A stretch of DNA of 64,000 nt, taken from contig JAQBYG010000003.1 in the NCBI GenBank assembly GCA_027620445.1, positions 175 through 64,174 on the forward strand, in the 5' to 3' direction. This document shows, one piece after another, positions 2,511-54,418 of the stretch (position 1 is the stretch's first letter; each line of letters begins with the position of its first letter). The notes beneath the pieces are model-generated. The model did not search any database, was not told the origin of the DNA, and saw only the letters and a program-made list of their open reading frames with translations. This DNA comes from a bacterium (GTDB taxonomy: Bacteria; Patescibacteriota; Microgenomatia; UBA1400; PJMF01). The position numbers were made by a program, and so were the translations under genes.

Positions 2511-3674
2511 CTAGGCTACCCAATACCCTTGTATAAACAGCAGTGCGTTGTAGATCAGTAAGCTTACACTGAGCAGTATGAGTATAACCCGAGCAAGTGT
2601 ATTTTTCAGTAAAAGTTGTGACCAAATATAAAAGAGTGGAAATGCGACCAGAATGTAGCGCGGCATACTAGACAGGGTTCCCGTTAGGGTTGGGAGCACA
2701 AGGACTCCAAGTGTAAATATGAGCCAAGAGGTCGGTACTTTGAGTTGCTGACGTTTCCAGTACCCATACGCGAGTGTTGTAAATGCAAGCACAGTTAACA
2801 AAAGCTCTTGGGCGTAGGTGAGCCAAATTCGACTAATTGGTACGGTTGCTAAGATTTTTACTCCTCTCCACAAAGTCTGCGGTAGGAGGATGAGCGATTC
2901 TTGCCTCCCGGATCCAAACTCAGACTGGACGTGGAAAAAATAGAGAGGGTCTGAGAACTCGTACTGTAAAAAAGACATGAACGCTACCAGTCCAGCTAAA
3001 GAGAGAGAAAGTAAAGCAATAATAGGCAGTTTTTTTCTGACTGCTGCAATCAAGTGACGAGACTGTGTGGGAGATAGTAACTGCCAGATCAATGCCAGAA
3101 ACACAAATACCCCAACCAATCTTGTCGAGATTGCCAAACCAGTTGCAAGTGTAGCCAAAGGCCAGTGTTTTTTTTCTGCAGCTAGAAATGCTCCGAGGAC
3201 AAAGCACAGGAAGAATGCTTCTGAGTACACCGCGCCAAAGTAAAAAGAGGTTGGGAATAGCAAGAGCAGTGCCAGGCTAAACCAGCTGACTTTACTTGAA
3301 GCTCGTTGCTTCACCAACGCATAGAAAAAATACAGCGCAAAAGTAAGCGCAATAAAATTCAGTAACAGTGACACAATTGTGTGTGAAAATCCAAACGAAA
3401 CAAACTGAATAAAGAGTGGAAAGAGCGGAAAGAAGGCTTGGATCAAACCAGTGCCGATGTAGCCTTTTTCCATGATGGTCAGGTAATGCACGCCGTCGAA
3501 GTTTGCCCAGGAGTACATCCATTGTGGTAGGCCAAGCTTGGCGAGGAGATCATACGCATAGGGAAAGCTTGGGTCGTAGGGTATAACTCGTGGCGCCAGG
3601 ATGCTGAGGGCAAACAAGCCGATTCTCCATCCCAAAACTAATACTATAATTCTTCTAAGTAGAGATTTATTCAC
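2511..3674 (-). CDS. Polytopic membrane protein, PIG-V-like GT-C mannosyltransferase family (tentative)
   Basis: 387 aa with many hydrophobic segments. N-terminal WANFDGVHYLTIMEKGY resembles the W-x-WDG-x-HY-L motif of PIG-V/GT76-type mannosyltransferases. Confidence 0.45.
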   Translation of the reverse strand: MNKSLLRRIIVLVLGWRIGLFALSILAPRVIPYDPSFPYAYDLLAKLGLPQWMYSWANFDGVHYLTIMEKGYIGTGLIQAFFPLFPLFIQFVSFGFSHTIVSLLLNFIALTFALYFFYALVKQRASSKVSWFSLALLLLFPTSFYFGAVYSEAFFLCFVLGAFLAAEKKHWPLATLATGLAISTRLVGVFVFLALIWQLLSPTQSRHLIAAVRKKLPIIALLSLSLAGLVAFMSFLQYEFSDPLYFFHVQSEFGSGRQESLILLPQTLWRGVKILATVPISRIWLTYAQELLLTVLAFTTLAYGYWKRQQLKVPTSWLIFTLGVLVLPTLTGTLSSMPRYILVAFPLFYIWSQLLLKNTLARVILILLSVSLLIYNALLFIQGYWVA

Positions 3675-5283
3675 GCCACTTTCTTGCTGAAATTAATAAC
3701 CAAGCAAGCGCAAGCAGCGAGACTGTATTTCCAACCAATCGTGCTGGTGTATTTTGAGTAAAGCGAGTGCTCACTTGGTACTCTCCCGCAGGCAAACGAT
3801 ACGCAATCCTGCCGGCGATTTCTTCACTCTGGAGGTACTCGACTTTAGCTGCCGTACCATTTTGCTCTACTGTGGTTTCCCAGCCAGGGAAGTACATGGT
3901 TGGCTCGATCACTATTGTTTCAATGCTCAATGTAAGTGAGTATTTTCTCGAGCTTCCATTCCACGAATGCACTGCAACATTTCCGGATTCTGGGTTGAGT
4001 AGCATTGGAGCAGGTTGCCAATCTCCAATTTGTGTATATGAAAACTGCCTTGTCCTATTTTCATTTTGTGTGCTTGTGCTTTGCGAGAAAACATCATAAT
4101 CAAGATTAGTTTTGTGAAAAAAATCGACCGGAGAAAGTCTTGAAATAGAAATAACTTGTACTGTCAGAACAACCATTAGCAGACGCTGCATGAGTCGACT
4201 CTGCTGTACAACGAAAATAAGTCCAGGAATCAGTAGTGCGCCAGTGAACAGACTCAGCCTCCAAGGAAATTGGATAAAGCTGGCGGCAGGAACTGCACTC
4301 CAGAGAGACTCGCTCATCCAAAGTTGACCGAGAGCTGTTGTCCATGCCAATGCCAACAATAGAAGTATTGAGTTTACACCCTGCTTTTGCCTACCGATAC
4401 AAAAAATGGTGGCTCCAAAAAGTACAACCAATATAGGAAGACCGAGTGAAAAAGAGAGCGAATCTACGTCTCCGGGGTAAGAGAATCCAAAACCAAGCGG
4501 GCTCCAAAGAAGTTGTTGCAATGAGACGAAGTGCTCGAAATAAGTAGAAACAAGCGAGGTTTCGCTAACTACAGTGTATGACATTTCTGCCACTGCAGGC
4601 AGCCAAAACCAGAAGCTGAGTGCTACTGCCCAACCAAAAACAGCAAGATGCCGCAGTAGTAGTTTTCTTGATCTATGAGATTGCATAAAAGAAATAAGAA
4701 GAAACATGCCAGTACCAAGCACGGCAGAAATGTTATGACTGAGCAAAAAAGCTGTGAAAATCACGATCGCAAACATTCGCTCCTTTCGCGAATCTGTAAG
4801 TGAAATTTTCAGTAACCAAGGTAACAGTGACAGCGCGAAAACTTCACCAATGTTTCCGCGAAAGTAGATTGTTGAAACTAAATATGGCTGTAGCAACCAA
4901 AAAATAGTAGCAAGTACTTGTGTAGGAACCGTCGCCTTAAAAACCTTGGAGAGTTGCCAAACCCCAATTGACCCAAACATGACGCTTGCTACAACAAGAA
5001 TCTTAAATGTTAGCTCATATGAAACACCGAGTATGGAAAATGGTAGAGAGAGAATGTTGGCAAGAGGGTAATTAAAGTTAAATACCGGGTATCCATAATG
5101 ATTCAGTAAGTTTGGTGCAAAACGTGGTGGAAACTGACCTTCCCTGAGAGCAATCTTATAATTGGCAAACCGAGCTAAGTGATTCTCTCCATCATGCGTG
5201 TACGGAAACGATGAGCTAAAATAAAGATGGAAGAGAGCTATAAAGGCGCTGCAGACAAGAATCAGTAAGCCAATTCGCTTCAT
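3667..5283 (-). CDS. Large polytopic membrane protein, paralog family A (uncharacterised; GT-C-like or PTPS-related membrane protein candidate)
   Basis: N-terminal signature HDGENHLARFANYKIALREGQFPPRFAPNLLNHYGYPVFNFNYPL, shared with ORFs 11910, 15533 and 34623. Multi-TM N-terminal half and a beta-rich C-terminal domain. The ORF track starts at 5352, but the start is more likely the internal Met MKRIGLL at 5283, which abuts the upstream GT4 stop. Confidence 0.5.
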   Translation of the reverse strand: MKRIGLLILVCSAFIALFHLYFSSSFPYTHDGENHLARFANYKIALREGQFPPRFAPNLLNHYGYPVFNFNYPLANILSLPFSILGVSYELTFKILVVASVMFGSIGVWQLSKVFKATVPTQVLATIFWLLQPYLVSTIYFRGNIGEVFALSLLPWLLKISLTDSRKERMFAIVIFTAFLLSHNISAVLGTGMFLLISFMQSHRSRKLLLRHLAVFGWAVALSFWFWLPAVAEMSYTVVSETSLVSTYFEHFVSLQQLLWSPLGFGFSYPGDVDSLSFSLGLPILVVLFGATIFCIGRQKQGVNSILLLLALAWTTALGQLWMSESLWSAVPAASFIQFPWRLSLFTGALLIPGLIFVVQQSRLMQRLLMVVLTVQVISISRLSPVDFFHKTNLDYDVFSQSTSTQNENRTRQFSYTQIGDWQPAPMLLNPESGNVAVHSWNGSSRKYSLTLSIETIVIEPTMYFPGWETTVEQNGTAAKVEYLQSEEIAGRIAYRLPAGEYQVSTRFTQNTPARLVGNTVSLLALAWLLISARKWRE

Positions 5284-6323
5284 GATATTGCTCTTTGATA
5301 TGCTGCAATTGTCGCTACAGCTGTTTTCTGCCAGGTAAAAGTTTTGCTCCAAGCAATACTTTCTGCTGCCAGTCTTATTCTGTGATCCTGAGTCAGGGCG
5401 TGGATTAACAATACCTGCTCTGCCAGAGATTCAGCAGTTTCAGTAGCAAAAAACGCAAGAGCTCCACCTACCTCAGGAAGCGATCCGAGTCGAGTAGAAA
5501 CAACAGGAGTGCCGCACTGCATAGCCTCAAGCACAGGCAAGCCGAAGCCCTCTGACAATGATGGTTGGACTAAGCAAAGAGCTTCAGAATACAAAACTGA
5601 AAGTACGTCTGTTTCGTCTGGACCCACATCTGTATAAAAATGCACCCGATTGGCTACGTTGCTCAGGGCAATTTGACGCTCAATTGCCTCCCATTCAGGA
5701 ATGGGCTGTGGTGTGAAGTTTTTGCCGACACAAACCAGTGCGATGCTATCAGGCAAGAATTTTAGCATTTTAATCAGCTGAGGAATATTTTTGTTGTAGT
5801 TGATATCTCCCACATACAAAACATACATTTTTGGTAGTTTGAGTCGACGACTTATTTTCGCAACAGTTGTAGTATCTTGAGGTGTAACCGCTGGATTTCC
5901 TGCAAGTGGTACTACAGATATTTTTTCTTCTGGGAATCCTAAGTACTGCAGCAGCTGTCCTTTTGAAAACTCTGAATCTGTAATGACGTGAGCAATTTTT
6001 TGCAGTGATCGCTTTTGTCTGAGATGCGCGAGCTTTCCTCGAATGCCGGGTTTGTAGTGCTCAGGAAATTGGAGAGGAATCAGATCATGAATTGTTATTA
6101 CGCCAGGAATTGAACGATGGAGATGAAGTGTGGGTGCAAATAAGTCAAAGTACGGGTAATGAATGAGATCAAACTCTCCTTTGGAAATACTTCTGCGCTT
6201 GGTGATCCTTGTTACCTCTATGCTCTCCTTTTCTAGAGCTGCAACAAGTTCCCGTGTGTACGTGCCAATGCCCCTTCGAGAGTGACCGCCAAGGAGTGGG
6301 GTTGTATCCATGGCAACTCTCAT
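5280..6323 (-). CDS. GT4 (group 1) glycosyltransferase
   Basis: C-terminal SLSEGFGLPVLEAMQCGTPVVSTRLGSLPEV is the E-x7-E retaining GT-B motif. Confidence 0.75.
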   Translation of the reverse strand: MRVAMDTTPLLGGHSRRGIGTYTRELVAALEKESIEVTRITKRRSISKGEFDLIHYPYFDLFAPTLHLHRSIPGVITIHDLIPLQFPEHYKPGIRGKLAHLRQKRSLQKIAHVITDSEFSKGQLLQYLGFPEEKISVVPLAGNPAVTPQDTTTVAKISRRLKLPKMYVLYVGDINYNKNIPQLIKMLKFLPDSIALVCVGKNFTPQPIPEWEAIERQIALSNVANRVHFYTDVGPDETDVLSVLYSEALCLVQPSLSEGFGLPVLEAMQCGTPVVSTRLGSLPEVGGALAFFATETAESLAEQVLLIHALTQDHRIRLAAESIAWSKTFTWQKTAVATIAAYQRAIS

Positions 6324-7105
6324 CGCTGCGTACTTTCTTGCGTTTCCCAGAGTTTAATGGCGACAACAGGATGATGCAGAGCACTCAGGCTTGCAAAGAG
6401 AAATCCGCGCCAGCCGTCTACATAGCCACGATGACGTATAAATAAAAGAAAAAAAGTTCGACAAGGATCAAACAGAAATGCTTTCACAGTATGCAAAACA
6501 CTCGGTCTCGTTTCGAGTTTCCACAAACGCTCGGCTTCGAAAGATGTATAGCGGTTAAATTTTTCTAGGTAGCTTGCAAGAGTAGGATAAGGGTAATGCA
6601 GTAGGTGACCTTCGGCAGTTCCTACTTCGCCAAATACTCTTAGTTGTTCATGCACATTTTCTTGTGGCAGCTCTGCTTTCCCTCTATAAAATAACCGAAT
6701 TACAGAATCAGGATACTGCCCTCCTTTGCGCAAAAAGTCGCCCAAAAAATCATTTTTCCGTTTGATATACCAAGCTACTGGGGCACTTGTCGATAACGAC
6801 TCGACAGCGACCTTGCCTTGCTTAGCGATAAAACGAGCTAGCTCTTGATCGACCACCTCATCAGCGTCTAGCTGAAGAAGTAAGTCACCCTTGGCTGCGT
6901 CGATTGCGAGCTGCTTGTTGATATGAAAGTTTGTATTGTTTGGAATCGAAATAACTCGAGCACCAAACTTTTTTGCCAAGGTCACTGTATTGTCACGCGA
7001 AGAACCATCGACAACTAAGATCTCATCTGCAAAATCTTTGACTGAATGCAAACATCTGGTGATATTCGCCGCTTCGTTGTGTGTAGCCAAGACAACTGAG
7101 ATCAT
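6320..7105 (-). CDS. GT2 glycosyltransferase (paralog of 30501 and 32244)
   Basis: ISVVLATHNEAANI...VVDGSSRDNT...LDADEV are the GT-A DxD-type motifs. ATGA overlap with the upstream GT4. Confidence 0.75.
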   Translation of the reverse strand: MISVVLATHNEAANITRCLHSVKDFADEILVVDGSSRDNTVTLAKKFGARVISIPNNTNFHINKQLAIDAAKGDLLLQLDADEVVDQELARFIAKQGKVAVESLSTSAPVAWYIKRKNDFLGDFLRKGGQYPDSVIRLFYRGKAELPQENVHEQLRVFGEVGTAEGHLLHYPYPTLASYLEKFNRYTSFEAERLWKLETRPSVLHTVKAFLFDPCRTFFLLFIRHRGYVDGWRGFLFASLSALHHPVVAIKLWETQESTQR

Positions 7106-7119
7106 AGGATTATTTTACT

Positions 7120-8676
7120 CTAGAACTTGGTTATCTCCCACCCAGAACCATTCCACTCGACCAGAACTGTCTCTTCAGCAGTTCGATCGGCTGCTTGCGC
7201 AATAAAGTGAAACCGGCCTGCCTGTTGGCCATACCGAAAGCCTATCTGATTTGGTGCCTGGCGCACTACACTAGAGAAGTATTCACTCGGCGAGAGTTGG
7301 GCATACCACGCAGCCAAAATATACTGATAGCCACCACCATCCACAACTGCGACTTCTGCATCCGGGAATTCTTGCTTAACTTGTATCATTGCCTGCTCAA
7401 AACCAGGTTGAAACATAAGTTGATCACTTTTGTACTCTACAAAGTAATTCTGTGAGTAACGAAACAGTGAAAGCAGGCCAAGAACCGAGATGAGCAGCCA
7501 AAAGTGTTTGCCAACTCTTTTACTTATTGATTCATATGCTACTCCAGCCGAAGTTATCAGAAGGAAAAAGAAAAAAAGACTCCTGGTGGTATGTGGCGCA
7601 TCGGTGGTAATGCTAGACGGGAGAAGTGATATACCAAGTAGAAGCAAAAGAACAAACATTCTCCCCTGGTGACTTTTCCAGGGCTGACTCCAGTCAATGC
7701 GCTGTTTCAAGATTGTTGCGACTGCAAGCACGACCCCTATGAGAGCAAGGAGATACTGCCACCAATAAATATGCCCCCAATCTGGGACTGAGTGCCACGG
7801 ATGGGAGCCTCCCTCTGTAATCAGAAAACGAGGCGAAAATGCTCTGACTGCATTTGCTACTACCTCTGGTGCAAAAAAAATGACTTTATTGCCCAACACT
7901 TTTTGTAAGCCAGTCGGAAGTGCCGATCGATACTCATTGAAGGCAAGTGAGGCCTGCTCATCAGAAAAAAGCGTGATATTTTGTTTTTGTTCAAAAACTG
8001 GTTGTAGTAAAGCTAGCGCAAGCAGTGTGAGAAGAAGCCAGCCAGAAAATACAGGTGTCCACTTCCGCCAATATTTGTAGCCATGTACAAATATGATGAT
8101 CGGAAGCAGCAAAATACCTAAAAGGAGCGGTGAATTGTAAGTAAATACTGCTGCAGCATAAGCGGCTAGAATCACAAGTTTTTTCAACAACGTTGGTCTT
8201 AGTACGTCACTCAGTAGTGTGGTCAAGCTCAAAACGAAAAAAAGAAGGGCAACATTGGCCTCAAACGCGATCCGAGAGTAAAAAATAAAAACGGGGGCAA
8301 TTGCCAACATGGCCGCAAGAAATACTGCAGCCTGGTTTCTAAGCTTTAGTGTTCTTGCAAACCAGTAACCCACAACTAGTAAACCAATTCCGCTTAATGC
8401 AGATGGTATGCGAACCCAAAAGTCATTGAGTGGAACAATTTTGAAAAGAGCGGCCAACACTGCGGAATACCCAATCAGCTTGAAGTCGCCAAACGACTCA
8501 AGGCTCACTGGCCAAGGTCTCCCCCACTCGTCTTGTCCAACCGAACTGAGCAAATAGCCGTTATAGGCTAGGGCTGCCTCGTCTCGGTTGAGGATGCTCG
8601 GCAAAGATCCGAGTTGCCAAAAACGGGGAATCGCAAGTAACGGAATCACTAAAAGCAAGAAAAGGATTTTTTTCAT
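7120..8676 (-). CDS. GT-C membrane glycosyltransferase, ArnT/PMT_2 (GT39/GT83-like), family 1
   Basis: First-loop motif NRDEAALAYNGY...GQDEWGRPWPVSLESFGDFKLIGY, about 12 TM segments, C-terminal extracytoplasmic domain. Downstream member of tandem pair 1. Confidence 0.7.
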   Translation of the reverse strand: MKKILFLLLVIPLLAIPRFWQLGSLPSILNRDEAALAYNGYLLSSVGQDEWGRPWPVSLESFGDFKLIGYSAVLAALFKIVPLNDFWVRIPSALSGIGLLVVGYWFARTLKLRNQAAVFLAAMLAIAPVFIFYSRIAFEANVALLFFVLSLTTLLSDVLRPTLLKKLVILAAYAAAVFTYNSPLLLGILLLPIIIFVHGYKYWRKWTPVFSGWLLLTLLALALLQPVFEQKQNITLFSDEQASLAFNEYRSALPTGLQKVLGNKVIFFAPEVVANAVRAFSPRFLITEGGSHPWHSVPDWGHIYWWQYLLALIGVVLAVATILKQRIDWSQPWKSHQGRMFVLLLLLGISLLPSSITTDAPHTTRSLFFFFLLITSAGVAYESISKRVGKHFWLLISVLGLLSLFRYSQNYFVEYKSDQLMFQPGFEQAMIQVKQEFPDAEVAVVDGGGYQYILAAWYAQLSPSEYFSSVVRQAPNQIGFRYGQQAGRFHFIAQAADRTAEETVLVEWNGSGWEITKF

Positions 8677-10316
8677 TTTAGCCTACGTTCTATTGTAATG
8701 AGTTGACTCTCATCAGAGCTCGTTTTCGCAATAAACTCATACTCCATTAGTTCGTTCACTGAAAGAGTTGTGGAATCACCAAAGGTCAGGTTATCAAAAG
8801 TCTTTACTTGGTGATCATTGGCCAGCAGTGCTTGCAACTCTGCGGGAGAGTACTTCCCCGAGGCAAGGAACCAAAGAAACAATCTGTCATCATAGAAATC
8901 TATCAAAACTTTTTCCTCAGGTTGTCTCGTTGTTTCAACCAACGTTACAACTTGATCAAAACCTGCTTGCCAAGCTTTCCTGCTCGCAAGTTGGTATGAG
9001 CCAAAATAATAGTAAAAGTATGAAAAGATATCAAAACAAACAACTAGTACCCAACCAAGAAGTACTGCTCGTTGCCATGTTTGTTTGTGATTATTGAAAA
9101 TCTGAACAAATGCAAGAACCCCGAAGCTAACAAGACTCAAAATGGGAAACATTCCTGCCAGAGTTCTCATCGCGTGAGGAGTTTCCTCGGCTATTGAAGC
9201 CGGTACAACCGCCACAAGATACCATGTACTCAGCGCTAACAGCAGTGCTTTGTCTTTTTTCCAGAGTGAGTACGAACCCATGATGAAGAATGGGAGAAAA
9301 CTCAAAAGCATGAGTCCATGCTTGCCAGTTCCATGCCGCAAGTTGCTATCGCCCGTCAGAAACAGGTAGGTTGGATGCACATGGTCTGCCATATTTTTTG
9401 CGAAAGCTTGTAGTAAAAACACCTCTCGGTGAAAAACGAGCCAACTCAAAATTGAGTTGTCGGCTAACTCCTTATAGTGATTGGAGAGAGAAGCCTGAGT
9501 CATTTTTGCCTCAAAGCTAAGAACTGACTTTGCACTCAACCGTAAATTCTGACTTGCTTGATACCACTCAGAGTGAGTGAGTGGAAGCAGTAACAGCGCG
9601 TACACTCCAAGCATGCTCATACCAATGGTGCTCTGCTTCAGCAGAGAAAACAGTGATCTGTTTTTTTTCGCTACAAATGTGAAAAGGAAAAATACAACTA
9701 GAATTCCTGGCCAAATATATCGTGCTGCGAAGTAGGTATAGCCCGCCGAAGCGCCAAATAATACCGAGAGAAATAAAAATACGACTCCAAGAACTTTCTT
9801 GCTGGATGGTCGCATTGAAAGAAGTAAAAAAAGCACAGAAACCAATATCCATGCCTGACTTAACATAGATTCAAAAGCAATACGAGAAAAAAAGAATGAC
9901 CACGGAGCAAAACTAGTCACGACTAGAAAAGCGAGTGACAAAATCTGCCGTTGAGTTCGAGATAGGTGTTTTGCAAGCAACCAAAGAATGCCCAAGCCTG
10001 AAATCGTAGAGATGGCCCAGGCAAATACCGATACGAACCGAAGTGACCAACCGGAGACTCCAAATAGCAGTCCTGAGAAGGAAGCCAAAATCGGCAGTCC
10101 TGGTGCCTTGAAGTCACCGTAGGAAGGGTAGATCGGCTGTAGAAAAGAGTTGCCGTGCATGTCTTTGCCACTCTCGACGACAGTTTGCATGTCGATAAGA
10201 ATAGCTGTTTCGTCCCAATAGAGGCCAGGAGGGGCTTCGCCAAGTTTGTATAGTCGCAAGCATAGTCCTAGTAAGAACACTGATAATGCACTAAGTAAGA
10301 ATATTCGAGTCAGCAT
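8673..10316 (-). CDS. GT-C membrane glycosyltransferase, ArnT/PMT_2-like, family 1
   Basis: YWDETAILID...GKDMHGNSFLQPIYPSYGDFKAPGL motif and a conserved PHAMRT motif later. 4-nt overlap with the downstream paralog. Confidence 0.65.
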   Translation of the reverse strand: MLTRIFLLSALSVFLLGLCLRLYKLGEAPPGLYWDETAILIDMQTVVESGKDMHGNSFLQPIYPSYGDFKAPGLPILASFSGLLFGVSGWSLRFVSVFAWAISTISGLGILWLLAKHLSRTQRQILSLAFLVVTSFAPWSFFFSRIAFESMLSQAWILVSVLFLLLSMRPSSKKVLGVVFLFLSVLFGASAGYTYFAARYIWPGILVVFFLFTFVAKKNRSLFSLLKQSTIGMSMLGVYALLLLPLTHSEWYQASQNLRLSAKSVLSFEAKMTQASLSNHYKELADNSILSWLVFHREVFLLQAFAKNMADHVHPTYLFLTGDSNLRHGTGKHGLMLLSFLPFFIMGSYSLWKKDKALLLALSTWYLVAVVPASIAEETPHAMRTLAGMFPILSLVSFGVLAFVQIFNNHKQTWQRAVLLGWVLVVCFDIFSYFYYYFGSYQLASRKAWQAGFDQVVTLVETTRQPEEKVLIDFYDDRLFLWFLASGKYSPAELQALLANDHQVKTFDNLTFGDSTTLSVNELMEYEFIAKTSSDESQLITIERRLK

Positions 10317-10343
10317 ACTGTTGTTCTATCATATCCAATCTGG

Positions 10344-11906: not shown

Positions 11907-11909
11907 AAT

Positions 11910-13598: not shown

Positions 13599-14311
13599 AA
13601 AAAGTAATCGCAATCATGCCTGCATTCAATGCAGCGAAGACATTAAAAAAAACAGTCCTCGATATCCCAAAAGGAATCGTGGATGAAATCATATTAGTCG
13701 ATGATAATAGCTCCGATGACACCACCGCTGTCGCTCGAGAGTTGGGGTTAACCGTTGTTGAACATCCAATGAATCGTGGGTATGGCGGAAATCAAAAAAC
13801 ATGTTACACCCTAGCACTTTCAAATAAAGCAGATGTTATCGTCATGATTCATCCAGACTATCAGTATGATAGTCGTCTTACCAAAGCAATGGTGCAACCG
13901 ATCCTCGATGGACACTTTGACCTGATGCTCGGCTCACGTATTAGAAGTCGTGCGGAAGTGCTTGCCGGTGGCATGCCAAAGTACAAGTATTTTGGCAATC
14001 GTTTCTTGACCTTGGTTGAAAACCTTATTTTGGGACAAAATCTCTCTGAATACCACACTGGATTTCGAGCCTACAATAGCAAACTCCTCAAGTCCTTGCC
14101 GTTTCATCGCTACTCAGATGATTTTGTCTTTGATTCTCAAGTTATCTTCGGCGCTATTGCCAAAAATGCTCGCATTGGCGAAGTGGCTGTGCCAGTACGT
14201 TACTTTGCTGAAGCTTCATCCATAAACTTTATTCGCTCCTGTATTTATGGTCTGTCTATTTTGAAAGATTTAGGAATTTACCTAGTGAGTGCAGGCAAAG
14301 CATTTGTATGA
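13595..14311 (+). CDS. GT2 Dpm1/GtrB-like polyprenyl-phosphate sugar synthase
   Basis: IMPAFNAAKTL...LVDDNSSDDT...HPDYQYD motifs. ATGA overlap with the upstream family-A membrane gene. Confidence 0.75.
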   Translation: MKKVIAIMPAFNAAKTLKKTVLDIPKGIVDEIILVDDNSSDDTTAVARELGLTVVEHPMNRGYGGNQKTCYTLALSNKADVIVMIHPDYQYDSRLTKAMVQPILDGHFDLMLGSRIRSRAEVLAGGMPKYKYFGNRFLTLVENLILGQNLSEYHTGFRAYNSKLLKSLPFHRYSDDFVFDSQVIFGAIAKNARIGEVAVPVRYFAEASSINFIRSCIYGLSILKDLGIYLVSAGKAFV

Positions 14312-27084: not shown

Positions 27085-28618
27085 TGCTCCCCATTACAAT
27101 ATGATCGGCTCGATCTGCCGGCAAGCCTTGACTTGGTGTGGCAACCACTAAAGTGTTGACCCGATTCAAATCACCTACAGAGATCCTATCAGAAAACTCA
27201 TATGTATTGAGTGATCCTCCCTGATACCAAATCGGGTTTGTTTTACGCACAAATAATGCGTAAATATACGGTTGGCCGTACTCACTGCTGAAGAGAATTT
27301 TATCTACCTTTGGCTTATTACTCTGTCCTAACTCAAACTCACGAGCAATGGAAAACGCTTCTATGTACCCATCTTGAAACGCAACAGCAGACTCTTTGGC
27401 AAACTTTGAAAAATACGCTTGTTCATATGAGATGAAGAAAAAGACATGAAGTAATACGAGTAATCCTAGTAGCGATTTTTGCAGCATTTGACCTTGCTTT
27501 GTTACTAGTTTTATAAGAAGCACTCCACCAACAACTGCTAACAAAATGAAACCAAGAACAGCAAACAGCCCTCTGTTACTATGCGGCGCCTCTGTAGCCA
27601 AAATGGCAGGTGCGCTGCCTACAACTACCAACAGTACTGCAAACATGGTTGCCCTACCCTGTTCTTTGAGCCAAACACTTAGGGGCAAGGCAATCACGCA
27701 CAAAACATAAGTGGTTGGGTGCAAAAATCCCCAAACTACACCCCCATCACGCAGTGTCGCAATGTTTTTACCAAGTAAGAGGAAAGCGGGGCTCAACTGT
27801 GCAAAAAAATTACCTACAAGCATTTGCAGCAAAGTAGACAGTGAGTAATTTTGATTAAAAAGTAAGACACCTGCTCTTGTGGCGCCAGGACCAAACAGCG
27901 AATCTCTCAAGAGCGGAATGAGTAGGAGTAGCGAAACCAAACCAATTAGCAGTATACGCAACACCGATTTTTTACTTGACTTGATCGCAAACAGAAACAC
28001 CACAATACTCATAATCGGTACAACAATTTTTGCACTGTGATAGGTGTAGATAGATGCCGAGAGCAACACAGCAGATCCGAACCCATTCACTAACCACCAT
28101 ACTAATCTTTTTGCTCGCAAGGCTCGGGCTAATAACAACCATCCCCAAACAGCAAAAGCTAGACTTAAACCAGATTCAAATGCTATTCTCGAGTAATGAA
28201 TGTGCCAGGGATTGAGCGCCAACATGCTTCCTGCTACTAGCGATAGCTCCACAGAAAATCTTTTGAAAACTCGTAATTCGTGCTGTAGAAGAATCCAACC
28301 CAGCACAGCAAAAACCCCAGCGATGGCGAACGACAAACGGACAGCAAATGGAGTCAGACCAAATAAATAAGTAAATGGACCATTCAAATAAATAGCTAGT
28401 GGCGCCTTGTAATCGCCAAACGATCTAAAAGAAACAGGCAAACGTACAATCCACTCGTCTCTACGGGTAGTCAAGATAGCATAACCGTTGTAACCGATCG
28501 CTGCTTCATCCCAGGTCAATCCATGAGGAACGCTGCCAAGCTGATAAAAACGAGTTGCAATGGCAAGAACCACGATCCCAAACAAAAACAAAAAAAACTT
28601 GCGTGACCACATCTGCAT
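27047..28618 (-). CDS. GT-C membrane glycosyltransferase, ArnT/PMT_2-like, family 1
   Basis: TWDEAAIGYNGYAILTTRRDEWIVRLPVSFRSFGDYKAPLAIY and PHSNRG motifs. Overlaps the downstream paralog. Confidence 0.7.
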   Translation of the reverse strand: MQMWSRKFFLFLFGIVVLAIATRFYQLGSVPHGLTWDEAAIGYNGYAILTTRRDEWIVRLPVSFRSFGDYKAPLAIYLNGPFTYLFGLTPFAVRLSFAIAGVFAVLGWILLQHELRVFKRFSVELSLVAGSMLALNPWHIHYSRIAFESGLSLAFAVWGWLLLARALRAKRLVWWLVNGFGSAVLLSASIYTYHSAKIVVPIMSIVVFLFAIKSSKKSVLRILLIGLVSLLLLIPLLRDSLFGPGATRAGVLLFNQNYSLSTLLQMLVGNFFAQLSPAFLLLGKNIATLRDGGVVWGFLHPTTYVLCVIALPLSVWLKEQGRATMFAVLLVVVGSAPAILATEAPHSNRGLFAVLGFILLAVVGGVLLIKLVTKQGQMLQKSLLGLLVLLHVFFFISYEQAYFSKFAKESAVAFQDGYIEAFSIAREFELGQSNKPKVDKILFSSEYGQPYIYALFVRKTNPIWYQGGSLNTYEFSDRISVGDLNRVNTLVVATPSQGLPADRADHIVMGSNGDPRFEIYVTK

Positions 28619-28619
28619 G

Positions 28620-31316: not shown

Positions 31317-31325
31317 AGACCTTCC

Positions 31326-32240: not shown

Positions 32241-32243
32241 AAA

Positions 32244-33140: not shown

Positions 33141-33153
33141 ACTATGTACTATT

Positions 33154-34626
33154 CTACGCAGAATTACTTAATTTTTCAGTCCGAACTGCGAGTAAACTGC
33201 GAATTTGCGAGAAAATGACTGTTTTGCCAACTGCTAAGAGGACAACTCCATATGTGGCGGCGGTTAGGCCCATACCGAGTACTAGCCACCAAACGGATCT
33301 TATCCAGAAACTCCCGCCAAGGAAGCCAAGTACTGCCATGACAACTACAGCCAAGAGTTGTCGCCAAACCTGCTCCCACACTTGCAAAACAACAAAACGT
33401 TTGACATACCAGACAGATAAAAATGAGCTACAGCTGATGATGAGCGCAGCGGCGGCAATTCCAGTGAAGCCGTACCAAATCAAGAGGAGCGGAGAAACAA
33501 CCCAAGTAAGAATTGTCCAGATAACCATTAATTTCAGTGTGTAGTTAATTTGCCCTATCGCAGTCAATGCTGTTGTCAGAGGAGAAGAAATTGAACTCCA
33601 GGCGATGCTAAGGGTAAAGAAAATGAAACTCGGTATGGCAGGCTGCCACTTGGCGTAAGTTGGAAATAATTCAATGAGTGGAGAGATAAAAAGTACCATG
33701 CCACAGAGAATCGGGAAAATTGCCAAAGTAATAAAAAAGAGAGATTTTTCGATCGCCGATTGCAGTTGTTTCGGACGATCTTGCAGTCGAGAGAAAGTGG
33801 GAAAAGTGACTGCCATCACATTGTTCACGGTGAGCGCATAGGGATACATAGACCAAGTCTTTGCCCACTGTACGTATCCATTTTCTCTCAGTGGCAAAAC
33901 ATAACCGAGGAACAAAAAAAACAATTGATCTTTAATGCGAGCCAGGAAGTCATTGAGCTGGAACTTGAGACCAAAACCAAGTAACGATTTTAGCGCAAGC
34001 CAGTTGGTAGAGAACCCAATCTGCCAACGCTTAATTAACATGAGTGTGATGACTCCCAGTACCGAGCGGATTACTATTGCCGGAACGTAAGCAAGTGCGC
34101 CCCAACCAGCAATCGCAAGCCAGATTAAAACACCTTGAAAAGCAACCTGCTCTACGATCTGGGGAATGACGAGCTTGGAAAAAAGCAACTGCCGCTCGAG
34201 CATAACGGAAGGTATCGTCTTGAGCGTAGCCAAGGGAAATGAAATCCCGAGTGCGAGCAATATATAATTACCGACCATGCCAGTTTTCTGTGAGAGTAGG
34301 TCAGTTGAGGCTACGCCCACGCAAACCAAGAGTATGACAAGTGAGAGCACAAACTGTACAGTAAAAACGCTGCGATATTCCTCGAGCGTTGGCTCAACCT
34401 TTTTTTGTATGAGTGTCGAAGCTAATCCTATGTCTGAGAAAAAAATCAGAATACCAATGATAGTGAGCACTATGCCATAAATACCAAAATCTTCCGGGGC
34501 AAAGTAAGCACTCAGGATAATTGCAGAAACAAATCCTATTCCTTGTAGAAACAAGGATCGAGCAAAGTACGAAACCGCACCAGAAACTGACTTTCGCTTG
34601 AGTGTCTGAACTTCGGCTTTATTCAT
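33154..34626 (-). CDS. Wzx-type oligosaccharide/polysaccharide flippase (MOP superfamily)
   Basis: 490 aa, about 14 TM segments. The N-terminal basic region followed by GIGFVSAIILSAYFAPEDFGIYGIV is typical of the polysaccharide biosynthesis protein / Wzx family. Confidence 0.65.
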   Translation of the reverse strand: MNKAEVQTLKRKSVSGAVSYFARSLFLQGIGFVSAIILSAYFAPEDFGIYGIVLTIIGILIFFSDIGLASTLIQKKVEPTLEEYRSVFTVQFVLSLVILLVCVGVASTDLLSQKTGMVGNYILLALGISFPLATLKTIPSVMLERQLLFSKLVIPQIVEQVAFQGVLIWLAIAGWGALAYVPAIVIRSVLGVITLMLIKRWQIGFSTNWLALKSLLGFGLKFQLNDFLARIKDQLFFLFLGYVLPLRENGYVQWAKTWSMYPYALTVNNVMAVTFPTFSRLQDRPKQLQSAIEKSLFFITLAIFPILCGMVLFISPLIELFPTYAKWQPAIPSFIFFTLSIAWSSISSPLTTALTAIGQINYTLKLMVIWTILTWVVSPLLLIWYGFTGIAAAALIISCSSFLSVWYVKRFVVLQVWEQVWRQLLAVVVMAVLGFLGGSFWIRSVWWLVLGMGLTAATYGVVLLAVGKTVIFSQIRSLLAVRTEKLSNSA

Positions 34627-36281
34627 TCTTGCCGCTCCCTATGCAACATAATGCCAAATAAAACGAGTATGCTCACAACTGAAATGCCGTTTGCCCAAGT
34701 GCGAATTGGTGTCGGCAAAAACAGTACGCCCACAAGGTGCGAACCTGTTGGCACAGTCACTTGTAACAAGCCTTCTGCTGATTTTTGGTGACCAACTCGC
34801 TTTCCGTCAATTTCAACCTGCCAGCCAGGAAAATCTGCAATTGCAAATGTAAGCTCAGTTTCATCAGTGAATGTCGCAAAGACGAGTTTTTCATGCACTC
34901 GATTCACGAGCTCACTTTCCTGAGGAAGAGTTGGGTCAATAACTACTTTCGAAAAATTAACTGGCACTGCTGTCTCGTCAAAACTTTCTGGCATGAAATC
35001 AGGCAAAATGCCACTCATACTCTCTGCTATCTGAGACTCATCAGCAGAGTACAGTTGCTCTGGATCAGCAAGATATGACTCTGGCCTAAAGTATCGCGCA
35101 TTACTGAGCAAAAGAATCACAAGGAAACCGGTTATAACAATCTTGAGTACCCTACCACGCAGAGTCATAACTCCACTTGTGATAGCTAGTGATAAGAAAA
35201 TAATGGCAACAGAAAGAAATCTCCAGGGAAACTGGACGAATCTGAGGACTTCTACCTGATCCCAGATAAACAACGTTTTTTCTGTCGTCATTAGTAAAGC
35301 AACACAGCCCAACAGAAATGAAAAAACAGCCAGCATGAGCTGATAGCTACGTACATTTTTCTTCTTGCGAATAGTTTGGAAAACTGCGGCTGCTACCAAA
35401 ACAAATCCAGTCAACATGCCGTAACCGAGAAAAAATGAGATCTCATCGACCGGACCCCAGACAGAACCTCCATATCCCCAGTAGGGAGTGATAAGTTGTC
35501 GCAGGTACAGAAAGTGCAGATGAAAATCAAAGTAGTGTGTCAAAATTCTGCCTTCCACTTGAGTGAGTGATTTTTCAAGAAAGGCTGGGAGTATATAGTA
35601 GGCAGCCATTCCAACCCCAAGCAACGTGCTCCCGAGTGTCGTGATCGCTTGTTTCCATGCTTTTTTGTACACGATGAATACCAGTGCAAACAAAGTGAAA
35701 AAAGGCAAAAAGATCATCGTGATCAGGTTATGACTCAATAACAAGCCAGCAGTGCTCAGAGCCAACACGACCCAACCATGCCGATGTTTCTGCAACACCA
35801 GTACAAGCCCCAGAAGCATCCAGACACTAGCCGCAATGCCCCAGGCTTCACTAATCGCACCCCTAATAAAAACATTAACAGCGCGATATGGTGCAAGCGT
35901 GATGAGGGCAGAAAGCAAGAGTGCTCCAATTGATCCAAACAATCGCTTGCCAAGATAGTACGCTGCGACAATGGTTAAGAGGTTCGCAAGAAAAAATACG
36001 CTTGAAACCGAAAAAAGTATCGAGCCAAAAAGCCAAAAAACAAACGCCCCAAAGTAGTACGGCAAGGGAGCATAAAAAAGATAGAGTGGCATGCCATACC
36101 CATATCCAAAGTTCTGGCTCCACTGTGGAGGAATGTGACCATCCGTAACTGCTCGAGTCATCTCGGCAATTCGCGCACCATGCGTATAATCATGCACACG
36201 AAAAAAGCCAGAATGAAAAAGCGGCCAACTACTGGCGACCAAAATAAGCAGAAGCGCGTTAGCGACGAGTAATCTTCTCAT
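34623..36281 (-). CDS. Large polytopic membrane protein, paralog family A
   Basis: HDYTHGARIAEMTRAVTDGHIPPQWSQNFGYGYGMPLYLFYAPLPYY signature. ATGA overlap with the flippase gene. Confidence 0.5.
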   Translation of the reverse strand: MRRLLVANALLLILVASSWPLFHSGFFRVHDYTHGARIAEMTRAVTDGHIPPQWSQNFGYGYGMPLYLFYAPLPYYFGAFVFWLFGSILFSVSSVFFLANLLTIVAAYYLGKRLFGSIGALLLSALITLAPYRAVNVFIRGAISEAWGIAASVWMLLGLVLVLQKHRHGWVVLALSTAGLLLSHNLITMIFLPFFTLFALVFIVYKKAWKQAITTLGSTLLGVGMAAYYILPAFLEKSLTQVEGRILTHYFDFHLHFLYLRQLITPYWGYGGSVWGPVDEISFFLGYGMLTGFVLVAAAVFQTIRKKKNVRSYQLMLAVFSFLLGCVALLMTTEKTLFIWDQVEVLRFVQFPWRFLSVAIIFLSLAITSGVMTLRGRVLKIVITGFLVILLLSNARYFRPESYLADPEQLYSADESQIAESMSGILPDFMPESFDETAVPVNFSKVVIDPTLPQESELVNRVHEKLVFATFTDETELTFAIADFPGWQVEIDGKRVGHQKSAEGLLQVTVPTGSHLVGVLFLPTPIRTWANGISVVSILVLFGIMLHRERQE

Positions 36282-38612: not shown

Positions 38613-38625
38613 TCGAAGGGAACAT

Positions 38626-39159: not shown

Positions 39160-39165
39160 TCGGAA

Positions 39166-51748: not shown

Positions 51749-51776
51749 GGACAGTAGCTTCAGCACACTACTGTCC
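51749..51776. terminator. Perfect 9-bp inverted repeat, GGACAGTAG - 10-nt loop - CTACTGTCC, at the convergent gene junction
   Basis: Read directly in the sequence. It overlaps the last five codons and the stop of the racemase gene. No T-run flanks it on either strand, so it is a hairpin rather than a canonical intrinsic terminator. Confidence 0.35.
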
Positions 51777-54334: not shown

Positions 54335-54418
54335 GCTGGCTCCTTTACTATGAAAAGAGCTTACGCAACAAAGTTAGGGAAATAAATGAATCAACTTAAT
54401 TCATTGCTATGACAATTG

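What the first reader, a model, noticed from the sequence alone, without database searches (positions are those of the whole stretch)
3667..36281. Four-member paralog family A of about 560-aa polytopic membrane proteins with a conserved H-D..H..R...FPPRW...FY-PLPY N-terminal signature
ORFs 3667-5283, 11910-13598, 15533-17221 and 34623-36281 share an N-terminal extracytoplasmic-loop signature. Examples are HDGENHLARFANY..GQFPPRFAPNL..GYPVFNFNYPL and HDLEYHAARTANYYLALQQGQFPPRWSPNL. They also share a C-terminal beta-rich domain with a P-x-G-x-YQVS motif. I cannot confidently assign them to a characterised glycosyltransferase family. The closest recollection is the PTPS-related / COG5617 large membrane proteins or YfhO-like proteins, none of which has a defined biochemical function. 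Each sits next to a Dpm1-like GT2 or another GT-C gene, so a lipid-linked-sugar transferase role is plausible but unproven.
Basis: partly seen in the sequence, partly recalled or inferred. Interest (0 to 1): 0.55.

Follow-up and report, generated by a model that had tools for sequence, protein, structure and literature searches.

The report
Four paralogous GT-C membrane glycosyltransferases
Four related 540-560-residue membrane proteins in an uncultured candidate-phyla-radiation bacterium are predicted lipid-linked-sugar transferases of the GT-C type (Pfam PF10131, misleadingly named 'pterin synthase-related'); they sit in a very large cell-wall-glycan gene cluster, and the family is large and already catalogued, but I found no report of a measured activity for it.

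Summary
ORFs 3667-5283(-), 11910-13598(+), 15533-17221(+) and 34623-36281(-) are paralogs (23-31% identity, 71-182 bits). They share the loop signature after the first membrane helix and a C-terminal beta-domain motif.

The signature holds in relatives. In 124 independent cluster representatives, D35 and G68 are 100% conserved and R42, P70, E151, H191 and R352 are 98%. The His before the Asp is conserved in only 58-80%.

Three of the four pass Pfam PF10131 (PTPS_related, GT-C clan). An AlphaFold model (pLDDT 93) matches only GT-C enzymes in the PDB: STT3, PglB, AftD, ArnT, DPY19, Emb. No solved structure is detectable by sequence.

The genes lie among at least 11 other GT-C genes, three polyprenyl-phosphate-sugar-synthase-like GT2s, a Wzx flippase, an LCP ligase and rhamnose genes. 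Subfamily-specific synteny is conserved across Patescibacteria.

Best reading: these are outward-facing GT-C transferases that use polyprenyl-phosphate sugars to build or decorate a wall glycan. Donor and acceptor are unknown.

Verdict: new members of a known but biochemically uncharacterised family. Interest is moderate.

The parts
3667..5283 (-). Family A paralog A_3667 (538 aa; MDA1079238.1). PF10131 GT-C membrane protein with all near-invariant residues present.
   Evidence: BLASTP paralogy. PF10131 48.4 bits. Residue table. Exact NCBI call. The start at 5283 overlaps the upstream GT4 stop by 4 bases.
11910..13598 (+). Family A paralog A_11910 (562 aa; MDA1079244.1, 'hypothetical protein'). 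Divergent member: R146A, G147A, E151T, E243Y, W351F, W481V. D35, R42, R58, H191 and R352 are retained.
   Evidence: No Pfam hit, but 439 bits to the family profile and BLASTP E 1e-16 to 1e-36 to the other three. The 70%-identical ortholog in L001 has the same substitutions.
15533..17221 (+). Family A paralog A_15533 (562 aa; MDA1079247.1). This is the protein modelled and the reference for residue numbering.
   Evidence: PF10131 47.2 bits. AlphaFold2 pLDDT 93.3, pTM 0.92. Foldseek hits to GT-C enzymes.
34623..36281 (-). Family A paralog A_34623 (552 aa; MDA1079261.1). Overlaps the Wzx start by 4 bases and is divergent from the LCP gene. Has R58Q.
   Evidence: PF10131 49.2 bits, PMT_2 31.8 bits, YfhO C-terminus 22.7 bits. 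PgfM1/PgfM2 C-terminus weak. Orthologs sit next to Wzx in L003, L004 and L014, and next to LCP as well in L003 and L004.
15629..15772 (+). First extracytoplasmic loop signature of A_15533 (residues 33-80): T-[HD]-D-x-E-x-H-x-x-R ... G-Q-x-P-P-R-W ... G-x-P ... Y-P-L-P-Y. D35 is the candidate catalytic Asp.
   Evidence: Conservation. The position directly after TM1 (helix 2-26) and at the start of loop helix 36-51. D35 aligns with the D of the WDE motif of family B.
15965..15988 (+). Second conserved outer-face motif of A_15533 (residues 145-152): R146-G-x-x-G-E151, at the TM3/TM4 turn.
   Evidence: R146 96-97% and E151 98% conserved. R146 aligns with the invariant S-R of family B. Topology.
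16574..16588 (+). Q348-F-P-W-R352 motif at the start of TM10 of A_15533, on the outer face.
   Evidence: P350, W351 and R352 are 97-98% conserved. Topology.
16724..17104 (+). Extracytoplasmic beta-sandwich domain of A_15533 (residues 398-524), carrying FPGW478-481, G501 and P-x-G510-x-H-x-V. It lies between TM11 and a C-terminal TM12 anchor.
   Evidence: Eight strands in both models. Domain-only model pLDDT 86.5. Only weak, non-significant matches to accessory beta-domains of glycoside hydrolases. The YfhO Pfam model matches this region in A_34623.
925..1590 (-). GT2, polyprenyl-phosphate-sugar synthase-like (Dpm1/PpgS/AglJ-like). Candidate donor synthase.
   Evidence: PF00535. Best NCBIfam matches are PpgS 94 bits and AglJ 79 bits, both below the equivalog cut-offs.
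13595..14311 (+). GT2, polyprenyl-phosphate-sugar synthase-like. Overlaps the stop of A_11910 by 4 bases.
   Evidence: PF00535. Best NCBIfam matches are AglJ, PpgS and Dol-P-hexose transferase, all below cut-off. 53-54% identical homologs sit directly upstream of a family-A gene in L023 and L024.
33154..34626 (-). Wzx/MOP-type flippase, immediately downstream of A_34623.
   Evidence: Polysacc_synt_3 160.7 bits. A_34623-Wzx adjacency is conserved in L003, L004 and L014.
36280..37413 (+). LytR-CpsA-Psr (LCP) family protein, divergent from A_34623. The true start is probably the ATG at 36314.
   Evidence: PF03816 86 bits. Sequence around the start. Conserved next to A_34623 orthologs in L003 and L004.
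37581..40044 (+). RmlB-, RmlC- and RmlD-like dTDP-rhamnose pathway genes.
   Evidence: Pfam GDP_Man_Dehyd/Epimerase, dTDP_sugar_isom and RmlD_sub_bind.
7120..28618 (.). Region holding the 8 family-B GT-C paralogs (7120-8676, 8673-10316, 17163-18812, 18813-20696, 20626-22317, 22308-24002, 25453-27084, 27047-28618). It also holds a single PMT_2 gene (10344-11906) and a 492-aa membrane protein (23978-25456).
   Evidence: BLASTP family. PMT_2 reaches the gathering score in 4 of the 8 and in 10344-11906. WDE motif. Remote homology to family A over the N-terminal 200 residues, 95.8% probability.
2511..3674 (-). 387-aa polytopic membrane protein of unassigned family, overlapping the stop of A_3667 by 8 bases. 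Conserved partner of the A_3667-type block.
   Evidence: No Pfam hit. Weak NCBIfam matches to 'cell surface glycopolymer formation' and 'LA_3751/LA_3752 putative glycosyltransferase' families. 38-47% homologs in L002, L017, L018, L021, L023 and L024.
5280..7105 (-). GT4 (5280-6323) and GT2 (6320-7105), immediately upstream of A_3667. This is a conserved block.
   Evidence: Pfam. The GT2-GT4-unknown block is conserved next to a family-A gene in L021, L023 and L024. The same block lies 2-4 kb from one in L016, L017 and L018.

Best explanation
The four proteins are GT-C-fold integral-membrane glycosyltransferases of Pfam family PF10131. This family grades into YfhO (PF09586).

Predicted architecture: 12 membrane helices with both ends in the cytoplasm. 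A long first outer loop begins with a strictly conserved Asp (D35), the usual position of the catalytic acid/base in GT-C enzymes. Further conserved outer-face residues are R42, R58, R146, E151, H191, E243 and R352. I infer that these bind the phosphate of the lipid carrier, possibly a metal ion, and the sugar. An eight-stranded beta-sandwich lies between TM11 and a C-terminal anchor helix, and I infer that it holds the acceptor.

Proposed mechanism (inferred, not shown):
1. The Dpm1/PpgS-like GT2 enzymes encoded alongside charge polyprenyl phosphate with single sugars on the cytoplasmic face.
2. The lipid-sugar is flipped to the outer face.
3. Each family-A paralog transfers that sugar, in its own linkage, to a growing cell-wall glycopolymer outside the membrane.
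4. The polymer's primer is made by the cytoplasmic GT2 and GT4 enzymes and exported by Wzx.
5. The LCP enzyme finally attaches the polymer to peptidoglycan.

The four paralogs are old, non-redundant subtypes rather than recent duplicates.
For: Shown here:
- Paralogy.
- PF10131 above the gathering score for 3 of 4 window proteins and at E<=0.01 for 43 of 65 family members. YfhO matches 14 of 65 at E<=0.01.
- PF10131 belongs to the Pfam GT-C clan CL0111 (PMC7801869).
- AlphaFold2 model with pLDDT 93.3 and pTM 0.92.
- The top 24 Foldseek PDB matches are all GT-C enzymes. Thirteen have E<=1e-3; the best is STT3 at 2.7e-5, and the highest query TM-score is 0.41-0.44.
- Profile-profile homology to the window's PMT_2-like family B (95.8% probability, E 6.5e-9). 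D35 aligns with the D of their WDE motif, and R146 with their invariant Arg.
- D35 100%, R42 98%, E151 98%, H191 98% and R352 98% conserved in 124 independent representatives.
- All of these residues fall on the outer face of a self-consistent 12-helix, positive-inside topology.

Context shown here:
- Three polyprenyl-phosphate-sugar-synthase-like GT2s in the window, one of them fused to a GtrA/DPMS membrane domain.
- Wzx, LCP and RmlBCD genes.
- Tight gene overlaps with neighbours.
- Neighbours of family-A genes in 24 other Patescibacteria loci are enriched for PMT_2 (13 of 113), GT2 (10), GT4 (4), Wzx (3) and LCP (2).
- Conserved subtype-specific synteny.

From the literature:
- The catalytic Asp of solved GT-C enzymes lies just after TM1, and C-terminal beta-domains bind the acceptor glycan (PMC11127046).
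- GT-A, flippase and GT-C multi-component systems glycosylate wall polymers. YfhO does this for teichoic acids (PMC8035078).
Against: - No member of PF10131 has a measured activity that I could find. The only papers that mention it call its function unknown.
- The structural matches are distant: identity at most 16%, TM-score about 0.4, E no better than 2.7e-5. No solved structure is detectable by sequence.
- The donor type (polyprenyl-P-monosaccharide or polyprenyl-PP-oligosaccharide) and the acceptor (glycan or protein) cannot be read from sequence.
- Only 2 of the 4 window genes sit beside a Dpm1-like GT2 or a recognised GT-C.
- In 9 of the 25 related loci, no homolog of any window glycosylation gene was found within 10 kb.
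- No separate GtrA-type flippase and no initiating phosphoglycosyl transferase were recognised in the window.
- A_11910 lacks three near-invariant charged residues, so it may not be catalytic in the same way.
- Spatial clustering of the conserved residues was not tested.
Confidence: 0.62

Rival explanations
1. They are protein O-glycosyltransferases. They would transfer single sugars from polyprenyl-phosphate donors to Ser/Thr-rich regions of secreted or membrane-anchored proteins (S-layer, pilins, wall enzymes). YfhO-family PgfM1 and PgtC2 do this in streptococci, and PMTs do it in actinobacteria.
For: A_34623 weakly matches the C-terminus of PgfM1/PgfM2 and of YfhO. 14 of 65 family members match the YfhO model. 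YfhO-family enzymes glycosylate Ser/Thr-rich disordered regions (bioRxiv 10.1101/2024.05.05.592596). The best PDB matches are the protein-modifying STT3 and PglB.
Against: The genomic context is polysaccharide-like: Wzx, LCP, RmlBCD and many GT2 and GT4 genes. No obvious Ser/Thr-rich target gene lies in the cluster. The order of the Foldseek hits among GT-C enzymes is not discriminating, since all lie between E 1e-5 and 1e-2.
Confidence: 0.2
2. At least the Wzx/LCP-linked paralog A_34623 uses a polyprenyl-diphosphate-linked oligosaccharide. It would act as polymerase, ligase or en-bloc transferase, filling the Wzy, WaaL or oligosaccharyltransferase role that has no recognised gene in the cluster.
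For: A_34623-Wzx adjacency with a 4-base overlap is conserved in three other genomes, and the LCP gene adjoins in two of them. No Wzy or O-antigen-ligase Pfam family was found in any window ORF scanned. The top structural matches are the PP-donor enzymes STT3 and PglB.
Against: No WWDYG-type motif and no STT3 Pfam match. By my recollection, known Wzy and WaaL enzymes have a different membrane fold class from the matches found here. A_34623 shares the same conserved residues as its paralogs apart from R58Q, which argues for the same chemistry.
Confidence: 0.1
3. Some or all members are not enzymes. They would be scaffolds, acceptor-binding partners or pseudo-enzymes of the neighbouring GT-C proteins. 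This applies most to A_11910.
For: A_11910 and its ortholog lack R146, E151 and E243 and fail the Pfam model. GT-C enzymes are known to work as hetero-oligomers (Pmt1-Pmt2, EmbA-EmbB; my knowledge, and PDB entries listed).
Against: Three of the four keep every near-invariant polar residue. D35 is 100% conserved across the family, which is expected for a catalytic residue rather than a scaffold. A_11910 keeps D35, R42, R58, H191 and R352.
Confidence: 0.06
4. They are related to 6-pyruvoyl-tetrahydropterin synthase and act in pterin or queuosine metabolism, as the public name suggests.
For: Only the database name: three of the four are labelled '6-pyruvoyl-tetrahydropterin synthase-related protein'.
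Against: No match to any PTPS catalytic domain in Pfam or NCBIfam. The proteins are 12-helix membrane proteins with a GT-C fold. The context is glycan synthesis.
Confidence: 0.01

Closest known systems
Pfam PF10131 PTPS_related
   Same: This is the family the proteins belong to. Three of the four pass the curated score, as do most homologs at E<=0.01.
   Different: Nothing differs in kind. The family itself has no assigned activity ('function unknown', PMC7801869). A_11910 is too divergent for the model.
YfhO family (PF09586): B. subtilis and S. aureus YfhO (lipoteichoic acid GlcNAc), L. monocytogenes YfhO (wall teichoic acid GlcNAc), streptococcal PgfM1 and PgtC2 (protein Ser/Thr glycosylation)
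   Same: GT-C membrane enzymes that work with a GT2 lipid-sugar synthase. The C-terminal FPGW...G...PxGxH motif region matches the end of the YfhO model. 14 of 65 family-A relatives are also hit by the YfhO model, and one YfhO-only relative (P0068) carries the same H-D...R...G-x-F-P signature.
   Different: The window proteins do not reach the YfhO gathering score. They are about 550 aa against a YfhO model of 835 positions. The hosts are Patescibacteria, not Firmicutes. No genetic or biochemical data exist for them.
ArnT / PMT_2-type GT-C enzymes (GT83/GT39-like), including the window's own family B
   Same: Remote but significant profile homology over the first 200 residues or so. The Asp after TM1 and the Arg at the TM3/TM4 turn align. 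A_34623 passes PMT_2. ArnT and Pmt4 are among the structural matches.
   Different: Different signature: [HD]-D-x-E-x-H-x-x-R...PPRW against WDE. Different C-terminal half: family A has a beta-sandwich and a terminal anchor helix. Family B and family A are not detectably similar by BLASTP.
Oligosaccharyltransferases STT3, PglB and AglB
   Same: Best Foldseek matches (E 2.7e-5 to 3e-4, query TM-score about 0.4) over roughly 440-500 aligned columns.
   Different: 13-15% identity. No STT3 Pfam match and no WWDYG motif. The outer domain is a small beta-sandwich rather than the OST periplasmic domain.
Mycobacterial arabinofuranosyltransferases AftD and EmbA/B/C, and the arabinogalactan pathway
   Same: AftD gives the highest query TM-score (0.43-0.44, rmsd 6.7-6.9). 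The system logic is alike: many GT-C enzymes, a polyprenyl-phosphate-sugar donor, rhamnose genes and an LCP ligase in one pathway (pathway from PMC11127046 and my knowledge).
   Different: Much smaller proteins without the large carbohydrate-binding modules. There is no evidence here for arabinose or ribose donors.
GT136 (Citrobacter ORF12) three-component pentofuranose transferases
   Same: The same domain logic: a GT-C core with a candidate catalytic Asp just after TM1, and a beta-rich domain after TM11 (PMC11127046).
   Different: No sequence relationship was tested or seen. The GT136 beta-domain is C-terminal and free, whereas here it is followed by a further anchor helix.
'Component 27' of Durairaj et al. 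(bioRxiv 10.1101/2023.03.14.532539): a large 'dark' bacterial GT-C family, partly labelled YfhO, whose best PDB matches are STT3 and PglB
   Same: The same pattern of evidence: YfhO-like labels, STT3 and PglB as best structural matches, and unknown function.
   Different: Median length is 665 aa, and that family is described as lacking Pfam coverage, whereas family A is covered by PF10131. I could not test whether the two are the same, because no sequence was available.

Membership tests
Pfam PF10131 PTPS_related | Whole-protein score at or above the curated gathering score (26.4 bits) | tested here: met
   48.4, 46.4-47.2 and 49.2 bits for A_3667, A_15533 and A_34623. A_11910 has no hit, but it scores 439 bits against the family-A profile and is a BLASTP paralog.
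GT-C glycosyltransferase superfamily | Polytopic membrane core of 7-13 helices | tested here: met
   12 helices in the AlphaFold model. Topology is N-in/C-in and consistent with the positive-inside rule.
GT-C glycosyltransferase superfamily | Conserved acidic residue at the start of the first extracytoplasmic loop, just after TM1 | tested here: met
   D35 is 98-100% conserved and lies between TM1 (residues 2-26) and loop helix 36-51. It aligns with the D of the WDE motif of the PMT_2-like family B.
GT-C glycosyltransferase superfamily | Structural similarity to solved GT-C enzymes | tested here: met
GT-C glycosyltransferase superfamily | Conserved polar residues form one pocket at the outer membrane face | not testable with these tools
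   All of them map to outer-face loops or helix ends in the topology.
GT-C glycosyltransferase superfamily | Uses a lipid-phosphate-linked sugar donor | not testable with these tools
   Only context is available: three polyprenyl-phosphate-sugar-synthase-like GT2 genes in the window.
YfhO family (PF09586) | Whole-protein score at or above the gathering score (28.5 bits), covering the 835-position model | tested here: not met
   Only A_34623 matches, at 22.7 bits, and only on model positions 774-826. Of 65 relatives, 14 match at E<=0.01.
YfhO family (PF09586) | Genetic requirement for teichoic-acid or protein glycosylation together with a CsbB/GtrB-type GT2 | not testable with these tools
   No experimental system. 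GT2 partners are present in the cluster.
PMT_2 / ArnT-like (PF13231) | Score at or above the gathering score (26.1 bits) | tested here: inconclusive
   Met by A_34623 only (31.8 bits) and by 3 of 65 relatives. The other three window paralogs have no hit. Remote homology is supported by hhalign.
Oligosaccharyltransferase STT3/PglB/AglB | STT3 Pfam domain and WWDYG-type motif | tested here: not met
   No PF02516 hit. No WW[DE] or W[DE][YFW]G motif in any of the four.
6-pyruvoyl-tetrahydropterin synthase | PTPS catalytic domain | tested here: not met
   No PTPS domain match in Pfam or NCBIfam at E<=1. The public name is a misnomer.

The most novel reading that the evidence does not exclude
This small-genome Patescibacteria lineage assembles its main wall glycan largely outside the membrane, by a dedicated line of 15 or more GT-C enzymes fed by only two or three polyprenyl-phosphate sugars. 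That would be a bacterial counterpart of mycobacterial arabinogalactan/lipoarabinomannan assembly, or of the lumenal steps of eukaryotic N-glycan synthesis.

Within it, PF10131 family A would supply four ancient, linkage-specific steps. The Wzx/LCP-linked paralog would act on the freshly flipped primer. The A_11910 type, which has lost R146, E151 and E243, would represent an altered (for example metal-independent) or non-catalytic partner form.
Probability: 0.2. Interest if true: 0.6.

Novelty: new member of a known kind. Interest (0 to 1): 0.36.

Why it matters
PF10131 and its relatives are a very large family: the family profile finds 49,281 cluster representatives at E<=1e-3. Public databases still give it a misleading 'pterin synthase-related' name, and I found no assigned activity for it.

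This work shows that the proteins have a confident GT-C fold. It provides a precise list of candidate catalytic residues (D35, R42, R58, R146, E151, H191, E243, R352). It also shows that each subtype keeps its own conserved gene neighbourhood. Together these give a concrete basis for re-annotation and for mutagenesis.

The surrounding cluster holds at least 15 GT-C genes in 64 kb of a reduced genome. This suggests that surface glycans are a major investment for these host-dependent bacteria, whose envelope chemistry is essentially unknown.

The finding does not reveal a new kind of system.

Tried and rejected
- **Sequence search of the PDB** with the 4-sequence and the 65-sequence profile gave no GT-C hit. 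The only match was a chance-level one (E 1.1) of the FPGW..G..G motif to an 89-residue chain.
- **A domain-only model of the beta-sandwich** (pLDDT 86.5) gave no significant PDB match. The best E was 0.024, with low-rmsd resemblance only to accessory beta-domains of GH146, GH5, GH30 and GH44 enzymes. Its class (carbohydrate-binding module, PEGA-like and so on) stays open.
- **The 65-sequence alignment** was too diverse for the locus finder, so a 12-sequence alignment was used instead. This biases the loci towards the A_15533 subtype.
- **hhalign of the unassigned membrane neighbours against family B.** 23978-25456 was weak (42% probability). 2511-3674 and 14308-15555 were negative. My by-eye impression that those two look PIG-V-like and GT87-like is therefore unsupported.
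- **Pfam scan of unassigned neighbours in related loci**, looking for a Wzy-type polymerase, found none.
- **Literature searches** for PF10131, COG5617 and the family name found only one relevant paper, which lists the family as being of unknown function. I could not confirm whether archaeal AglS belongs to it.
- **The pterin-synthase reading** of the public name was rejected.

Full report
**1. The observation**

The window's ORF list contains the four ORFs. The contig is a 64,496-bp contig of a MAG labelled only 'bacterium'. Three products are named '6-pyruvoyl-tetrahydropterin synthase-related protein' and one 'hypothetical protein'.

An all-against-all BLASTP of the 32 large ORFs in the first 40 kb groups these four together: 24-29% identity over more than 500 residues, 71-182 bits. 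A second, larger family of eight roughly 520-630-aa membrane proteins stays apart.

The alignment of the four shows the quoted strings and 43 invariant columns. Identity is 32-58% in residues 33-80 against 23-31% overall.

**2. Conservation outside the window**

A word-indexed search with 15533-17221 returned 74 relatives, mostly unnamed metagenomic proteins. Those with names come from Pacebacteria, Levybacteria, Gottesmanbacteria and one Anaerolineales.

In a 65-sequence alignment, numbered as in 15533-17221, the following are conserved:

| Residue(s) | Conservation |
|---|---|
| D35 | 98% |
| R42 | 94% |
| R58, W59 | 92%, 91% |
| G68, P70 | 100% |
| P137, Y138 | near-invariant |
| R146, G147, G150, E151 | near-invariant |
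| H191, P239, E243 | near-invariant |
| Q348-x-P-W-R352 | near-invariant |
| F-P-G-W 478-481, G501, G510 | near-invariant |

A full profile search of 1.84 billion cluster representatives found 49,281 hits at E<=1e-3 and 11,564 at E<=1e-30. In 124 of the best representatives, none of them used to build the profile:
- D35 and G68 are 100% conserved.
- R42, P70, E151, H191, W351 and R352 are 98%.
- R146 is 96%, R58 is 94% and E243 is 93%.

The His preceding D35 is only 58-80% conserved and is often Asp. The signature is therefore real and family-wide, and it extends well beyond the first loop.

**3. What the proteins are**

Three of the four pass the Pfam gathering score for PF10131 PTPS_related. 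34623-36281 additionally passes PMT_2. It also matches, below threshold, the last 50 or so positions of the YfhO model and of the NCBIfam PgfM1 and PgfM2 models. Among the 65 relatives, 43 match PF10131, 14 match YfhO and 3 match PMT_2. One relative flagged only as YfhO carries the same H-D..Y-H..R..G-x-F-P signature. PF10131 is listed in the Pfam GT-C clan and described as being of unknown function (PMC7801869). No PTPS catalytic domain is present.

An AlphaFold2 model built on the 65-sequence alignment is confident (pLDDT 93.3, pTM 0.92). It has 12 long helices, a helix-containing first loop, an eight-stranded beta-domain (residues about 441-518) and a final helix. Foldseek against the PDB gives 13 matches at E<=1e-3, and the top 24 matches are all GT-C enzymes:
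- yeast and human STT3
- PglB
- AftD (highest query TM-score, 0.43-0.44)
- ArnT
- DPY19
- EmbA/B (Pmt4 appears further down the list)

Identities are 9-16%, so these are fold-level matches. No solved structure is detectable by sequence.

Hydropathy and charge distribution fit an N-in/C-in 12-helix topology. In it, every conserved charged residue lies on the outer face. A profile-profile comparison with the window's eight-member PMT_2-like family gives 95.8% probability over the first 200 residues. It aligns D35 with the Asp of their W-D-E motif and R146 with their invariant Arg. In solved GT-C enzymes the proposed catalytic Asp lies just after TM1 (PMC11127046).

**4. Context**

The first 40 kb of the window is one glycan-synthesis region. 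It contains:
- four family-A genes
- eight family-B genes and one more PMT_2 gene
- three unassigned polytopic membrane proteins
- seven GT2 and two GT4 genes
- an epimerase
- a Wzx-type flippase
- an LCP ligase
- RmlB-, RmlC- and RmlD-like genes

Two of the GT2s (925-1590 and 13595-14311) have as best NCBIfam matches the polyprenyl-phosphate-sugar synthases PpgS, AglJ and haloarchaeal Dol-P-hexose transferase, although below the equivalog cut-offs. A second cluster at 55-64 kb adds a PMT and a PMT_2 gene, a GT2 fused to a GtrA/DPMS membrane domain, and GDP-sugar genes.

Gene ends overlap by 4-8 bases between family-A genes and their neighbours, which suggests co-translation.

It does not hold for 3667-5283 (flanked by GT4 and an unassigned membrane protein) or for 34623-36281 (flanked by Wzx and LCP).

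**5. Related loci**

A scan of one genome per species found 25 loci, all labelled Patescibacteria lineages or 'uncultured' bins. tblastn with the window's proteins and a neighbour-joining tree (no support values) show subtype-specific, conserved neighbourhoods:
- LCP | A_34623-type - Wzx: the A_34623-type/Wzx pair recurs in L003, L004 and L014, with LCP adjoining in L003 and L004.
- family-B - A_15533-type - family-B, in L016-L020.
- Dpm1-like GT2 - family A - GT2 - GT4 - unassigned membrane protein - epimerase, in L021, L023 and L024.

A further subtype (F-D...T instead of H-D...R) occurs in L016-L020 but not in the window. The four paralogs are therefore old and non-redundant.

Among the 113 ORFs within two genes of a family-A gene in 24 loci, 13 match PMT_2, 10 GT2, 4 GT4, 4 PMT, 3 Wzx and 2 LCP. 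In nine loci nothing related to the window's cluster was found.

**6. A divergent member**

11910-13598 and its 70%-identical ortholog in L001 both carry R146A, G147A, E151T, E243Y, W351F and W481V. They keep D35, R42, R58, H191 and R352. This is a stable subtype with altered outer-face chemistry. It may use a different mechanism or act as a partner subunit.

**7. Mechanism**

Shown: the GT-C fold, the outer-face conserved residues, and the glycan-synthesis context with lipid-sugar synthase-like GT2s.

Inferred, by analogy with the multi-component transmembrane glycosylation systems (PMC8035078; PMC11127046):
- D35 acts as the catalytic base or metal ligand.
- The Arg and His residues bind the carrier phosphate.
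- The beta-sandwich holds the acceptor.
- The donor is a polyprenyl-phosphate monosaccharide.
- The acceptor is a wall glycopolymer that LCP later links to peptidoglycan.

YfhO-family enzymes can modify either teichoic acids or Ser/Thr-rich protein regions, so a protein acceptor remains a serious rival. For the Wzx-linked paralog, a diphosphate-linked donor cannot be excluded either.

**8. Comparison and verdict**

These are members of PF10131, a catalogued GT-C family adjoining YfhO. They are not YfhO proper, not oligosaccharyltransferases (no WWDYG motif) and not pterin enzymes.

A large YfhO-like 'dark' GT-C family with STT3 and PglB as best structural matches has been described (bioRxiv 10.1101/2023.03.14.532539). 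I could not test whether it is the same family.

The finding is a correct and useful annotation of new members of a known, uncharacterised enzyme family, set in an unusually GT-C-rich cluster. It is not a new kind of system.

Noticed in passing
window 7120-28618: A second paralog family of eight PMT_2-like GT-C membrane proteins (518-627 aa) shares an N-terminal G-L-x-W-D-E-A motif. It is interleaved with family A. With 10344-11906, 55176-56762 and 58774-60288, this brings the window to at least 15 recognisable GT-C genes.
   Followed up: partly
window 11910-13598; L001 6372-8066: This family-A paralog and its 70%-identical ortholog both lack three near-invariant charged residues (R146A, E151T, E243Y), and the window copy fails the Pfam model (the L001 ortholog was not scanned). 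It is a stable divergent subtype, possibly with altered chemistry or non-catalytic.
   Followed up: partly
window 55176-63969: A second glycosylation cluster: PMT-like gene, 440-aa unassigned ORF, GT2, PMT_2-like gene, GT2 fused to a GtrA/DPMS transmembrane domain (60301-61491), GDP-mannose 4,6-dehydratase, a second epimerase/reductase, and a UDP-glucose/GDP-mannose dehydrogenase cut by the window end.
   Followed up: no
window 2511-3674, 14308-15555, 23978-25456: Three polytopic membrane proteins (387-492 aa) inside the cluster have no family assignment. 2511-3674 has conserved homologs next to family-A genes in six other genomes and weak NCBIfam matches to 'cell surface glycopolymer formation' families. 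These could be further glycosyltransferases or the missing polymerase.
   Followed up: partly
proteins P0075-P0078 (profile search): The top-scoring representatives are 1,093-3,329 aa long and contain 2-6 complete family-A units. They are either true tandem fusions or adjacent paralogs merged by gene calling. Either way, arrays of up to six same-strand copies exist elsewhere.
   Followed up: no
L016-L020 (e.g. L016 12284-13960, L018 15547-17211): A further family-A subtype has F-D...T in place of H-D...R (R42T, and R58 to T/S in most copies) and lacks the E423 position. It is present as a second copy in several genomes but absent from the window.
   Followed up: no
window 36280-36320: The longest LCP ORF starts at 36280, base-to-base against the divergent A_34623 start codon at 36281. 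An ATG at 36314 (MKSATQ...) is a more plausible LCP start and leaves about 30 bases between the genes.
   Followed up: partly
window 51760-54334: Glutamate racemase-like, D-Ala-D-Ala ligase and a VanX-like M15 D-Ala-D-Ala dipeptidase lie in a row on the minus strand. They are followed by tRNA-Gln(CTG) at 54418-54489 and a response-regulator-like gene.
   Followed up: no
window 38626-39159: The RmlC-like 177-aa protein also matches Pfam Polysacc_synt_C (a membrane-domain model) on the same residues. Its sequence is that of a soluble cupin, so the second match is probably spurious.
   Followed up: partly
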